From NCBI GenBank assembly GCA_001275005.1, contig JWZX01003229.1, positions 1 through 58,709 of the forward strand: a stretch of 58,709 nt of DNA. The letters run 5' to 3'. Numbering within the stretch: position 1 is the stretch's first letter; each line of letters starts with the position of its first letter. The notes below the pieces were generated by a model. The model was not told where the DNA came from and ran no database searches. It saw only the letters and a program-made list of their open reading frames with translations. A program made the translations under genes and the position numbers. Positions 20,133-43,550 of this stretch are shown here, in pieces. Source of the DNA: Chrysochromulina tobinii. Its lineage: Eukaryota.

Positions 20133-21683
20133 TCAGCTGGTTGGATGTTGCAGCATCAGCTGCAGCGCTGCCCCCCTATACCCTGACGCAACTACCTTGC
20201 CATGCAGCTCGGCAACCTCCACCGCCGACAACAGGTTCCCATCGAGATTCAATCTCTCGAGGTGGCAAGCTCCGTCAAAGTCGTCCTCGCAGTCCAGCGT
20301 AAGCACGGCCGCGAGCACCGCCGCCGCTCCGCTGGGGCCGATTTCGTTTCGGTCGAGCCACAGGCGCCGTAGTGAGCGCGCCGTGCGCAAGGGCCGCGCC
20401 AGGGCGGTGGCGCCCTTGTCGCCGATGCTGTTCCCCCCGAGGTACAGCTCGACAAGCGCCATCGTGGGGCTGCCGAGGAGCGCTGCCACGGCAACGGCGC
20501 CGTCGCTGCGCAGATGCATGCGCTCGAATGTGAGGCAGCGCAGAGCGCCGAGGGAGTACGAGGCTGCGCAAGGCTGCTGCTGGCCTCCGGCGCTCGGCAC
20601 GGCGCCCCGGAATAGGCCGTTGCCGCTCGGCACGGCGCTCCGTGAGCTGGCGGCCCAGGGGTCGATCTCGAGTGCGAGATCAAGTGCACCTCCGTGGCTC
20701 TCGAAGGCCCCTGCCGGCCCAGCGCTCAAAGCATTGTCATCAGTGGTCATCAGAGGTCATCAGTGATCATCAGAGGTCATCAGAGGTCATCAGAGGTCAT
20801 CAGAGGTCATCAGTGATCATCAGGGGCACCCACCCAAAGCATTGTCGCTGAGGCACAGCTTGCGCAGCGAGGGCACCTGGCCGAGTAGCGGCTTCACTGC
20901 GAGCCAGCCAGCCGCATCGCAGAGCTGATTACCGCCGAGCGCGAGCGTCGCGAGATGGCTGTGTGAACGGAGAGCATACGCCAAGGTCGAGGCGCCCACG
21001 GGCCCGACAGCATTATGGTCGACGTGGAGCAAGGACAACACCTGGTTTGTGACGAAGCCGTCGGCGAGCGACGCGACCCCAGAGTCACCCAGCCAGTTGC
21101 GAGACAACCTCAGCTCCTCGAGCCGTTGCTTACGTGCAGCGAGGAGCGACGCTAGGGCAGGACCGGCCCTGGCCGTCAGGTTGTTGCTGCTCAAGTCGAG
21201 GGCCACGAGCTGGACGCCCGAGGTGGCGACGATTGCGGCCACCAGCGAATCCACTCCAACGTCACCGGCGCCGACAGCGGCGAGGCACAGCGTTTGCAGC
21301 GTGAGAGGCGCACGGAGCAGCAGCGCCTGAGCGACCGACTTGAGGCCAGCATCACCGAGCGTGCTTGCGCGTAGACGCAACGTCAAGATCGCATTGGACT
21401 GAGGTCGGAACCGACACGCCTGCACGTCAGATGCCGCTTTCGCCTGCGCGTCTGCAATCTCAGTTGAAATGCAAGACTCCAGTTCTCGAGGGCTTAAGTG
21501 CCTGTTAGAGAGATCGATGACCTGATGCACAGCCAACCCGTGCCGGGCGCCGACGCGCACCGCTAGGCGTGCGAGAAGACCGCTGTCGAGCGTCACATTC
21601 GCTGAGGCGCGAGCGGCGTCCGTCATTTTCGGCTTGCCGGAAGGGTCAGGCGACCAACGCCCGGGTGCCTGGAGTCTGTTCAT
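20133..21683 (-). CDS. RNI-like leucine-rich repeat protein; intron at 20711-20833
   Basis: Repeated LxxLxLxxNxxGxxG units (LEELRLSRNWLGDSG, LVELYLGGNSIGDKGA, LRRLWLDRNEIGPSG). Splicing joins LSDNALG|AFESHG in frame. Start codon uncertain (21683 or 21626). Confidence 0.85.
20738..20824 (-). repeat. Intronic 10-nt tandem repeat (CTGATGACCT-like on the sense strand)
   Basis: (catcagaggt/catcagtgat)n on the + strand, about 8 units, inside the LRR-gene intron. Confidence 0.9.
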
Positions 21684-21719
21684 GTTAATACACACAACAC
21701 GTACACAGGAGACGTGTGT

Positions 21720-21772
21720 GTGTGAACGTTAACACGACAGACGCGACAACCGGTGCTACGGCACTGTTACTG
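21720..21772 (-). repeat. Dispersed repeat A, copy 1 (partial)
   Basis: Reverse complement CAGTAACAGTGCCGTAGCACCGGTTGTCGCGTCTGTCGTGTTAACGTTCACAC closely matches 36459-36511 and 53137-53200. Confidence 0.85.
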
Positions 21773-41246: not shown

Positions 41247-41908
41247 GCACGGTTCACAGGACTGCAGGCTCTCAACATCCGGAAGATAAGAATCTCCCCA
41301 AAGTAGATTGCTTTCGGAACTTTACCTCAGTTGCATGCATACGCAGTTCGGGAACGAGCAGCGAATTAGGTTCGAGTTCCGGGACGTGTCAGTCGGGTAG
41401 TTACGAGTTAGTTCCTCATGTAGGTACCGTACATGACTGTACCACTTCCGTCCCAGCTCGCGTTCGAAATCATCGTACTCAACAGCCACCGTCCCTCAGA
41501 TCTCCGGTTTCATGTTGGTCTCATGCGTGGATGATGTGTCGCCCTGCTGCTCCTCATCCTCCTGATAAGCGCATTCGATTCATTATCGATTCAACGACAT
41601 GGCCTTTGCGCTTCTTGGCTTTGCGGTGCGACCGGAGCGCAGCCGCGCACGATCCACGATGCGCTTCTGGGGGCTGGCCGCGTGGGCCCTTCCCAAGACT
41701 CTCGAACTGCGTGGATCCCTCCGGCTCGAGAGCCTCCTGTCAGTCAGTCAGTTTCTTCGCGGTCCCCGCGCGCCTCTATAGGATTATTTCTCTCATCGAA
41801 TTCTAAAGACTAAACGAACGTACATCGGTCATGACATCGGTACTCTAACCGTACCTCCGTATCCTAAGAGTAGTTTCCATATTCCACTGACTCGCTAGTC
41901 GCTATTGG

Positions 41909-43550
41909 CTATAGCCAGCCGCCCTCAAGGGCAAGCACGCCGTCCGCGAGGGGGCGCAGCAGCAGCCGCTCTCCGGCGAGCATCAGCGCGCCGAAGCCGA
42001 CAGAGAGTGGGATCGCCGGCTCGAGAGATCGAAGCGGCCAGCGCAACGCCACGTGGACCATGAGCAGCCCGAGACCGCAGAGAAGCCCAATGGCTACGGC
42101 GGCGAGGGGTGCGGCGCCGAGACGGGCGGCGTGGCCTGCGAACACCGAGAAGACGATGAAGTCGCCCAGTCCGAGGAGGAGGTCGTCCTGAGCACCAGCG
42201 ACACACACGAGACCCGACCATCAGTGGCCATCCGTGGCCATCCGTGGCCATCCGTGGCCATCCGTGGCCATCAGAGCTATGCCTTAGCAGAGCTGCACTA
42301 ATGAGGGAGGCAATCAGCATGCAATCAGTGGCCATCAGAGCTATACCTTAGCACCAACATTATCAAACGAGAGCCCGGGCATCTGCTCGACGCCAGCCTT
42401 CTGTCGCGCGGCGTAGAGTTTGTCGATGGTCTGGACGGGCGAGCAGTAATGCGAGGCCATGAGAGGCCATTAGTGGCCATCAGTGGCCATGAGTGGCCAT
42501 CAGTGGCCATGAGTGGCCATCAGTGGCCATGAGTGGCCATGAGTGGCCATCAGTGCCAAGCAGTGGCCATCAGTGGCCATCAGTGGCCATCATCAGTGGC
42601 CATCAGAGGCCTACCTGGACGGGGGAGCAGCACGGGAGGCCGACGAGGAGGATGTCGAGCGCAGCGAGCAGCCCGATGATCGCGATCATCATTTGGTACG
42701 GTATGCACGTGAGTACCCACGCAAAGAGGATCTGCGCAGGCGAGGCCAAGGGACGAGGCGCCGTTCTGAGCACTTGCATGCGAGCTCCTCCTCACGCTCG
42801 ACACAAGGTTGTCTGCGATCCGAGTGCATGCAAGTGCTCAGCACGGCGGGAGCGCACCGCGAGGCTGTCAGCGTATACGATCCGAGTGCGCTGAAACCGT
42901 CGGCGCGTCGGAGCCCATTGGGCGAGGAGCACGCCAGGCACGGCGAGATTCCACACGAGAAACGCCGTCGTGGGCGCGTCGAGCGGCACGCCGGCGGCCT
43001 GGGCGGCGCGTAGCAGGAAGAGCGCGAGCGGCACGCCCAAGCCCACTCCCACCCAAAAAGATACGAGCGTGTGCAGCAGCCTCAGCCACGAATGCGTGTA
43101 CAGAAGGGCGTACGCGACGAAGTTGAACAGAAAGAGCGCGCCGACGACTGAGGCGCCGAGCAGTGCGGCGCGTGCCTGCGCGGCGGCCGATTCGCGAATG
43201 TCAAAGGGCGCGGGCAGCGCATCGAAGGCCGGCGGCAGCGCGAGCACGAGCACGACTGTGCCGCCCATAACCAGAGCCATCTCGCGCACCACCGGCCAAG
43301 CGCGCACGAGTGGCGGCCGCGGCAAGCGGAACCGTCGAGGTTTTGCGCGCTGGATCCGCTGGTCCACGCGCTCAAGGTAGCGCGAGAGGCAGTCCGGCGC
43401 CGAGGCCGCCTTCTTCTCACTCCGTGGCTTGCACGTTTCGGAATCTGCCACGAGCGTCACGTCATCGATGCTGACGGGTGAACGAGACGCGCTCTGCTGG
43501 TGCCGGGCAGCGTGCGATGGTGCCCTCTCCAAGCGGAGTGCGTCGGCCAT
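41909..43550 (-). CDS. Presenilin-like GxGD intramembrane aspartyl protease; 4 exons
   Basis: Introns 42732-42857, 42431-42614 and 42188-42346 splice in frame. Multiple TM helices; AALDILLVGLPCCSPVQ (first Asp), MPGL, LGLGDFIVFSVF (second Asp) and PAIPLSV (PALP-like). Confidence 0.88.
42455..42610 (-). repeat. Intronic 10-nt tandem repeat (CTGATGGCCA/CTCATGGCCA on the sense strand)
   Basis: (cagtggccat/gagtggccat)n on +; a related array lies at 42219-42275. Confidence 0.9.

What the first reader, a model, noticed from the sequence alone, without database searches (positions are those of the whole stretch)
20738..42610. Intron filler repeats are strand-locked arrays of branch-point-like YTGAT/CTGAG units
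Seen: 10-11 nt tandem units (CTGATGACCT, CTGATGGCCA, CTGATGAGCT, TTGATTGCCG, CTGAGTGCCC, CTGAGCGCCA, CTGATGGGCG) occur only inside introns. They read ATCAG/CTCAG on + in minus-strand genes (20740, 22880, 23270, 25195, 31100, 42220, 42480) and CTGAT/TTGAT/CTGAG in plus-strand genes (27785, 28770, 37680, 38540). Known: the U2 branch consensus is YTRAY. Inference: the repeats are amplified branch-point or intron-definition signals, each intron expanding its own variant, so orientation follows transcription rather than being random as for neutral minisatellites.
Basis: partly seen in the sequence, partly recalled or inferred. Interest (0 to 1): 0.8.

Follow-up and report, generated by a model that had tools for sequence, protein, structure and literature searches.

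The report
Repeat-filled introns made by insertion
In this haptophyte alga many introns are filled with 10-12-base repeats that almost always read in the gene's direction, and they likely arose when pieces of existing introns were pasted into genes with a duplication of the landing site, so the one-way orientation would reflect which insertions could be spliced out rather than a row of working branch points.

Summary
Five of the 11 named arrays lie in RNA-confirmed introns, and the other six lie in predicted introns on the expected strand. Across 641 kb of this organism and close strains, a strand-neutral gene model put 196 arrays in sense introns and 3 in antisense introns.

The 'amplified branch point' reading is only partly supported. 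The last unit often sits at a fixed -17 position and is a plausible branch site. However, units are spread evenly along the intron, vary in number between strains, and can lack YTRAY. A non-repetitive second intron module is equally strand-locked.

The best reading is Introner-like insertion of intron-derived modules with variable target-site duplications, splicing selection for one orientation, then slippage expansion.

The scan noted the duplication footprint before, on another piece of this genome (e1-2577349). I recall strand-biased 10-11 bp intron repeats from the Emiliania genome paper but could not verify this.

The parts
20725..20829 (-). Predicted array intron (CTGATGACCT units) in an LRR gene; its 3' end holds a 12-nt copy of upstream exon sequence
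   Evidence: Model; 12-nt shared stretch; LRR Pfam hit upstream; only unspliced RNA contigs shown
22626..22753 (-). Intron with stereotyped CCCTCATCAG end, last YTGAT A at -17; first 6 nt repeat the next exon start; internal 15-nt copy of the upstream exon
   Evidence: RNA joint in 4 of 4 runs
22856..23026 (-). Array intron starting with the GTACGCTGAT head; internal 17-nt copy of the upstream exon end (local tandem duplication)
   Evidence: RNA joint in 4 of 4 runs
23242..23418 (-). Array intron with 11-12 nt units (16 YTGAK sense, 0 antisense)
   Evidence: RNA joint in 3 of 4 runs
23990..24340 (-). Intron made of 14 copies of a 23-nt unit (TGAT motif, pyrimidine run, GCATGC)
   Evidence: RNA joint in 3 of 4 runs; TRF
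25171..25257 (-). R-type intron: first 8 nt copy the next exon start (10-nt junction repeat), array, stereotyped acceptor end
   Evidence: RNA joint in 3 of 3 RNA runs, 10 letters fit either side
27621..27879 (+). Predicted intron with CTGATGGGCG array and 8-nt junction repeat
   Evidence: Model only; low RNA cover
28764..28953 (+). Predicted intron with TTGATTGCCG arrays; holds 30-nt and 16-nt copies of the flanking exons (83-nt and 63-nt tandem duplications)
   Evidence: my merge of two model introns; no RNA joint shown
31068..31217 (-). L-type intron in threonine dehydratase: CTGAGTGCCC array, no YTRAY, last 21 nt a degenerate copy of the upstream exon end
   Evidence: RNA joint in 3 of 3 RNA runs; 38 of the top 40 homologous proteins read through the site
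37669..37840 (+). Array intron (CTGATGAGCT); the donor GTGATGGC is itself unit-like; last YTRAY 78 nt from the acceptor
   Evidence: RNA joint in 2 of 3 RNA runs
38013..38148 (+). Predicted intron with scattered units
   Evidence: Model
38485..38815 (+). Predicted intron region with CTGAGCGCCA array and 59-nt tandem copies of acceptor plus next exon start
   Evidence: boundaries uncertain (my merge of two model introns)
42188..42346 (-). Predicted L-type intron; last 10 nt copy the upstream exon end
42431..42614 (-). Predicted L-type intron with CTGATGGCCA array; last 16 nt copy the upstream exon end
42732..42857 (-). Predicted array-free intron holding the second module (GCATGCAAGTGCTCA...) once sense and once antisense
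18177..18306 (+). Array-free control intron; holds a 13-nt copy of upstream exon sequence
   Evidence: RNA joint in 1 of 4 runs

Best explanation
These arrays sit in spliced introns and read in the gene's direction, and the introns likely arose when short modules copied from existing introns were inserted at staggered breaks in coding DNA, duplicating 7-40 nt of the target. Shown: one-sided exon copies at intron ends, two stereotyped modules shared by unrelated genes, and a 54-nt element that carries a donor, two repeat units and a CTCAC motif. Inferred: the insert brings one splice site and the duplicated exon supplies the other (GT or AG). Either orientation can insert, but only sense inserts offer donor, branch site and acceptor in order. 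Antisense inserts are runs of CATCAG acceptors and survive only as rare in-frame coding insertions. Afterwards the two-unit seed expands by slippage and local tandem duplication. One unit near the 3' end (often at -17), or the CTCAC of the second module (23-37 nt from the end), probably serves as the branch point, and the rest is tolerated filler. Whether the template is DNA (break repair with a template switch at CAG|GT) or intron RNA (reverse transcription) is unresolved.
For: Exon copies of 10 nt or more: 61 of 161 array introns vs 0.7% in swapped controls; inverted copies 2 of 161, more distant flank 9 of 161. Among 235 introns with 2 or more chained units: exon end copied at the 3' end 22, next exon start copied at the 5' end 29, both 1 (null 0.16% and 0.60%). 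The stereotyped acceptor end is present in 24 of 29 of the second class but 4 of 22 of the first (p=5e-6). The 54-nt element has 7 copies within 6 mismatches at 6 sites in 5 loci, 4 sites clearly followed by a copy of their own upstream exon end. The second module is in 57 of 383 introns and shows the same duplications in 22. Mismatches between copies are doubled at third codon positions (19/405, 21/408, 40/418; p=0.007). An antisense 81-nt element with an 8-nt direct repeat lies in frame in a WS/DGAT gene. 38 of the top 40 threonine dehydratase homologues read through intron 31068, and P0016 breaks 13 codons further on. CAG counts in introns are 336 sense vs 1995 antisense.
Against: 183 of 235 array introns show no junction duplication above threshold. 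No intron presence/absence difference was seen in five strain pairs (2,775 intron columns). Local tandem duplications across exon-intron borders are plainly common, so some junction copies could postdate the intron. Most homologues may be transcript-derived. The antisense exonic case is a single Pfam-anchored example. Only 8 introns are RNA-confirmed; the rest come from my own model (7 of 8 recovered). The GA core is better kept in interior units than neutrality predicts. No mobilising enzyme was looked for.
Confidence: 0.6

Rival explanations
1. The introns are old. Arrays and exon copies come from slippage and local tandem duplication across splice borders, sometimes followed by precise microhomology deletion of one copy. 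Shared modules reflect selection on splice signals plus gene conversion, and strand lock is purely splice selection.
For: Internal copies of [exon end + donor + array] and whole-intron tandem duplications are frequent. Strains differ by a 79-nt duplication over an acceptor and an 80-nt array indel. Precise deletion at AG|GT is proposed in PMC3020277. No presence/absence polymorphism was seen.
Against: It needs two events per intron. It does not explain near-identical 54-nt heads in unrelated genes, each followed by its own exon copy. It does not explain the antisense element in an exon or relatives that seem to lack the threonine dehydratase intron.
Confidence: 0.22
2. One reading: arrays are selected as multiplexed branch-point or SF1/U2AF landing pads that define introns in a GC-rich genome with weak pyrimidine tracts.
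For: 196 vs 3 orientation; peak at -17; A and G are the least variable positions of interior units (4.2% and 5.0% vs 9.5-22.5%). Tandem branch-consensus repeats bind SF1 in Gomafu (PMC3116199, abstract).
Against: Units are uniform along the intron and abut the donor. 16% are YTGAG. The T two bases before the A is kept in only 51 of 81 terminal units. Spliced introns exist with no YTRAY or no array. Copy number varies between strains. In Gomafu the repeats delay splicing in vitro (section heading).
Confidence: 0.13
3. The roughly 10.4-nt period is a DNA-level feature (helical phasing or nucleosome positioning) or a safeguard that puts stop codons in all frames of retained introns.
For: Mean spacing 10.45 nt. 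Sense arrays have stops in all three frames in 154 of 161 introns, against 40 of 161 for the antisense strand.
Against: A DNA-bending role does not predict strand lock. Introns of length 3n are not clearly enriched for arrays (63 of 125 vs 98 of 258). Both features follow passively from a TGA-containing 10-mer.
Confidence: 0.05

Closest known systems
Introners / introner-like elements (Gozashti 2022, 10.1101/2022.06.06.494994 = PMC9860276; Gozashti 2025, PMC12130899; Polarella and Symbiodinium classes, 10.1101/2020.10.14.339549)
   Same: One splice site is carried and the other is co-opted from a target-site duplication, in both arrangements; introns form in one orientation only. Chrysochromulina sp. 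elements carry the 5' site and co-opt the 3' site. Emiliania families are listed as 'carry 5' co-opt 3'' and 'co-opt 5' carry 3'', one with 10-bp terminal direct repeats and class unknown.
   Different: The duplications in the passages I read are fixed per class at 3-8 nt; here they run from 7 to 40 nt. There are no terminal inverted repeats, bodies are variable minisatellite arrays, and only short modules are shared end to end. The 2025 table lists 0 families for Chrysochromulina tobinii.
Intron gain by staggered double-strand-break repair in Daphnia (PMC4202315; review PMC3020277)
   Same: Direct repeats at splice junctions, internal repeats from repeated breaks, and introns that lengthen passively.
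   Different: The source of most Daphnia inserts is unknown. Here the inserts resemble other introns of the same genome and carry stereotyped splice signals. The Daphnia gains are shown by population polymorphism, which I did not find.
10-11 bp intronic tandem repeats of Emiliania huxleyi (Read et al. 2013, Nature; recalled, not held)
   Same: As I recall, 10-11 bp units enriched in introns with strand and positional bias in a haptophyte.
   Different: Not verifiable here. I do not recall an insertion or branch-point explanation there, but could not check.
Gomafu/MIAT tandem UACUAAC repeats (PMC3116199, abstract and outline)
   Same: Tandem branch-consensus repeats in an RNA.
   Different: Exonic, in a long non-coding RNA, acting as an SF1 sponge; not intron filler.

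Membership tests
Introner | Near-identical intron sequence in unrelated genes | tested here: met
   54-nt element, 7 copies within 6 mismatches in 5 loci; second module 99 copies. Similarity is not end to end for most array introns.
Introner | Splice site co-opted from a target-site duplication | tested here: met
   22 L-type and 29 R-type of 235; stereotyped end tied to class, p=5e-6
Introner (DNA-transposon type) | Fixed duplication length and terminal inverted repeats | tested here: not met
   Lengths 7-40 nt; longest inverted repeats mostly 6-8 nt, and the longer ones mostly short palindromes
Introner | Intron absent at the orthologous site in relatives or other strains | tested here: inconclusive
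   One gene only, through protein homologues of uncertain origin; no empty site in five strain pairs
Introner | Autonomous mobilising element | not tested
   No whole genome held; the single viral-collection hit looks like a chimeric contig
U2-type branch point | YTRAY-like motif at a constrained distance before the acceptor | tested here: met
   For the last unit only: -17 peak; A kept in 74 of 81, T at -2 in only 51 of 81. Second module A at 23-37 nt in 47 of 57.
U2-type branch point | Lariat formed at this adenosine; pairing with this organism's U2 snRNA | not testable with these tools
   Only assembled contigs were available; no Rfam match in the window
Non-LTR/SINE-type target-primed insertion | Variable-length duplication with one fixed end | tested here: met
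   R-type: fixed 3' end, variable 5' side, 7-30 nt. Break repair gives the same footprint.
Non-LTR/SINE-type target-primed insertion | Partner reverse transcriptase sharing the 3' tail | not tested
   No genome-wide search possible
Neutral minisatellite | Copy-number variation between strains | tested here: met
   80-nt (8-unit) indel, L002 vs L004
Neutral minisatellite | Orientation independent of the gene | tested here: not met
   196 vs 3; Pfam 21 vs 1

The most novel reading that the evidence does not exclude
Excised introns are themselves the mobile template. Debranched or lariat-derived intron RNA is reverse-transcribed in trans into staggered nicks, so introns seed new introns with no transposon ends. 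R-type inserts end exactly at the acceptor AG, and the L-type element starts at the donor and stops about 9 nt after its likely branch adenosine, as a trimmed lariat would. Slippage during copying would generate the strand-locked 10-12 nt arrays of haptophyte introns.
Probability: 0.2. Interest if true: 0.85.

Novelty: new variant of a known kind. Interest (0 to 1): 0.6.

Why it matters
The source of most new introns is still open (PMC4202315). Here 313 of 383 predicted introns carry one of two shared modules (loci were selected for module 1, so the share is inflated), many with a dated duplication footprint. That makes intron birth countable and testable in one genome. Variable duplications and repeat-filled bodies would escape Introner searches based on end-to-end similarity, which may be why none were listed for C. 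tobinii. The model also offers a mechanism for the strand-biased intron repeats of haptophytes, and gives motifs that should improve their gene models, reported as often wrong at intron borders (PMC10290126).

Tried and rejected
No whole genome is held, so I used 78 metagenome loci found with an intron-end pattern. Intron-rich genes and module 1 are therefore over-sampled; I give anchor-free counts where it matters. Of 144 stored loci only L001-L078 (those with long flanks) were modelled. Of 463 predicted introns, 383 passed flank and length filters. Some array-free 'introns' are model artefacts at frameshifts or exonic repeats, for example four in the dynein gene.

Hairpin role: rejected. Folding z-scores were about -0.8 on both strands in 40 introns.

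Pairing with the recalled textbook U2 hexamer did not separate CTGAT from CTGAG units, so it is uninformative.

Classical tandem duplication of an AG|GT exon segment predicts copies at both ends. It was seen in 1 of 235 introns and is rejected as the main route.

Palindromic MITE origin: considered because of GCATGC-centred palindromes and intron 42732-42857, but no general terminal inverted repeats were found.

Collection scans: viral contigs gave 0, 1 and 0 hits, the one hit looking chimeric; prokaryote genomes gave 0. Rfam found nothing in the window. The very high summed RNA contig depth over arrays comes from repeats elsewhere and was not used.

Literature: ten searches found no held paper describing these arrays. 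Read et al. 2013 and one review were not held. The motifs were not found in the 2022 Introner supplement, which was cut when stored. Two files of the 2025 supplement were not searched, and the authors' sequence repository could not be seen, so these families may be listed there.
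Full report
Organism and data. The best named relative of the window's threonine dehydratase is from Prymnesium parvum (70% identity), so this is a haptophyte alga. No whole genome is held. A scan of metagenome contigs with an intron-end motif gave 146 stretches. One locus is 100% identical to the window over 20,020 nt and others overlap each other at 97-99.7%, so I treat them as this organism and close strains. The window plus L001-L078 give 641,207 non-redundant bases.

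Observation. The arrays are present as described. RNA contigs splice eight introns: 22626-22753, 22856-23026, 23242-23418, 23990-24340 and the array-free 18177-18306, and 25171-25257, 31068-31217 and 37669-37840. That covers 5 of the 11 named arrays. The array at 20740 appeared only in unspliced contigs, and the rest have model support only.

Strand test. I wrote a gene model whose first pass masks repeats and has no intron sequence model, so orientation comes from the flanking codons. It found 271 arrays against 2 and 2 in Markov simulations: 196 in sense introns, 3 in antisense introns, 4 in exons and 68 unassigned, the last mostly in intron-dense stretches or at contig ends. Counted per intron this is 136 to 3. 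Independently, Pfam hit 21 of 80 sense-strand flanking frames and 1 of 80 antisense ones. A second, trained pass, which is not strand-neutral, recovered 7 of the 8 RNA introns exactly and placed 261 of 271 arrays in sense introns.

Are the units branch points? In part. 828 of 986 units begin YTGAT and 158 begin YTGAG; spacing is mostly 10, then 11 and 12. The last YTRAY has its A at -17 in 111 of 383 introns, or 51 of 314 without the search anchor. In interior units read independently of their own sequence, A and G vary least (4.2% and 5.0% against 9.5-22.5%; p=0.001 against the neighbouring T), though alternating unit types inflate the variable positions.

Against a row of working signals: units are even along the intron, and 32 of 161 arrays start 5-6 nt after the donor. 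The T two bases before the A is kept in only 51 of 81 terminal units. Spliced intron 31068 has no YTRAY. 148 of 383 introns have no chain. Strains differ by eight units in one array. No lariat or U2 data were available.

61 of 161 array introns contain an exact copy of 10 nt or more of the adjacent exon, against 0.7% in swapped controls; inverted copies occur in 2 of 161. Chain-free introns show this too (46 of 148), so it marks the introns, not the arrays. At the junctions the copies are one-sided. Of 235 introns, 22 end in a copy of the upstream exon end (L), 29 begin with a copy of the next exon start (R), 1 has both and 183 have neither above threshold; lengths are 7-40 nt. R introns carry the stereotyped acceptor end (24 of 29) and L introns mostly do not (4 of 22; p=5e-6). 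Unit-like donors occur in 6 of 22 L and 0 of 29 R. Mismatches between the two copies are twice as frequent at third codon positions, as expected if a coding copy and a neutral copy have diverged by about 5% each since duplication (inference).

Second: shared modules. A non-repetitive module, GCATGCAAGTGCTCACCACGGCG, occurs 99 times (50 sense and 1 antisense in neutral-pass introns). It is in 57 of 383 introns, has its CTCAC adenosine 23-37 nt from the end in 47 of 57, and shows junction duplications in 22. A 54-nt element joining a GTACGT donor, two repeat units and this module occurs 7 times within 6 mismatches, at 6 sites in 5 loci; 4 sites are clearly followed by their own upstream exon end. 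26 of 383 introns begin with its head. Its two units are among the commonest array units, which suggests the arrays grew from this seed (inference).

Third: orientation is filtered. The one antisense Pfam case is an 81-nt head-plus-array element between 8-nt direct repeats, in frame in a WS/DGAT reading frame. Antisense module-2 copies lie in frame in a predicted exon of L032. Read antisense, an array is a run of CATCAG acceptors (CAG 336 sense against 1995 antisense), and read sense it has stops in all frames in 154 of 161 introns.

Gain or old positions? 38 of the top 40 threonine dehydratase homologues read through the site of intron 31068. P0016, on an 11-kb contig, breaks 13 codons later, which I read as its own intron. 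Many homologues may come from transcripts. Five strain pairs showed no empty site, only an 80-nt array indel and a 79-nt duplication over an acceptor. Local tandem duplication is clearly active, so the old-intron rival stays open.

Mechanism. Shown: splicing of eight introns, strand lock, one-sided exon copies, shared modules, copy-number variation. Inferred: insertion of intron-derived modules at staggered breaks, co-option of GT or AG from the duplicated target, survival of the sense orientation only, later expansion, and one terminal branch site. Untested: DNA or RNA template, the enzyme, and the branch adenosine. Confidence is 0.6, against 0.22 for old introns with local duplication, 0.13 for selected branch arrays and 0.05 for a DNA-level or stop-codon role.

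Known systems and what I saw of each paper. Gozashti 2022 (passages, section 7, supplement rows) lists haptophyte Introners, including Chrysochromulina elements with 4-bp duplications that carry the 5' site. Gozashti 2025 (passages, supplement rows) lists unclassified Emiliania families of both arrangements and none for C. tobinii. The Polarella preprint (passages) has duplications of 3-8 nt fixed per class. The Daphnia paper and break-repair review (passages) describe junction repeats. Gomafu was seen as abstract and outline. The C. tobin nuclear and organelle papers, the Emiliania proteogenomics paper and a Daphnia repeat survey (passages) did not describe these arrays in the passages shown. 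Read et al. 2013 is recalled only. Ten searches found no held description of the arrays.

Earlier scan notes. My reading was recorded, before one search showed e1-2577349, an AI note on a 15-bp duplication-flanked intron elsewhere in this genome. It agrees with my reading, is not independent evidence, and pointed me to the Polarella preprint.

Verdict. It works like an Introner or break-repair intron gain but fails the fixed-duplication and inverted-repeat tests. I rate it a new variant of a known kind, interest 0.6.

Noticed in passing
L021:9352-9440: Antisense copy of the head-plus-array element, 81 nt between 8-nt direct repeats, in frame in a wax ester synthase/DGAT reading frame (Pfam E 4.4e-12). 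It is either translated or part of an unusual intron.
   Followed up: partly
L032:7000-7340: Antisense copies of module 2 as 51-nt in-frame tandem repeats in a predicted plus-strand exon (model only).
   Followed up: partly
window 700-13504 (-): Dynein heavy chain-like gene (name from my reading of the translation) of about 13 kb with no array introns and four apparent frameshifts near 1750, 2280, 5750 and 5950; assembly errors or a damaged copy.
   Followed up: no
window 23992-24312: 14 copies of a 23-nt unit holding branch-like motif and pyrimidine run but no AG until the last copy; a natural test of acceptor scanning.
   Followed up: partly
L049:2490-2657; L012:9317-9464; L006:10001-10076: Whole introns duplicated head to tail with an internal CAG|GT; candidates for recursive splicing.
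   Followed up: no
window 21680-21800, 36380-36520, 47420-47500, 53060-53200: A recurring intergenic repeat (GTTAACGTTCACAC-like) next to gene starts, with very many contigs piling on 36413-36511; possibly a small mobile or promoter element.
   Followed up: no
L145:4200-4554: Viral-collection contig whose last ~350 nt carry module 2 and look like this alga's DNA joined to a phage-like sequence; likely a chimeric assembly.
   Followed up: partly
window 31068: All 38 aligned homologues have Gly right after this intron position, where the window's spliced protein goes directly to Asp; the junction codon may have changed after insertion.
   Followed up: no
383 predicted introns: Phase 0/1/2 = 227/57/99 and about 10% GC donors (39 of 383), as expected if splice sites are recruited from coding sequence.
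   Followed up: partly
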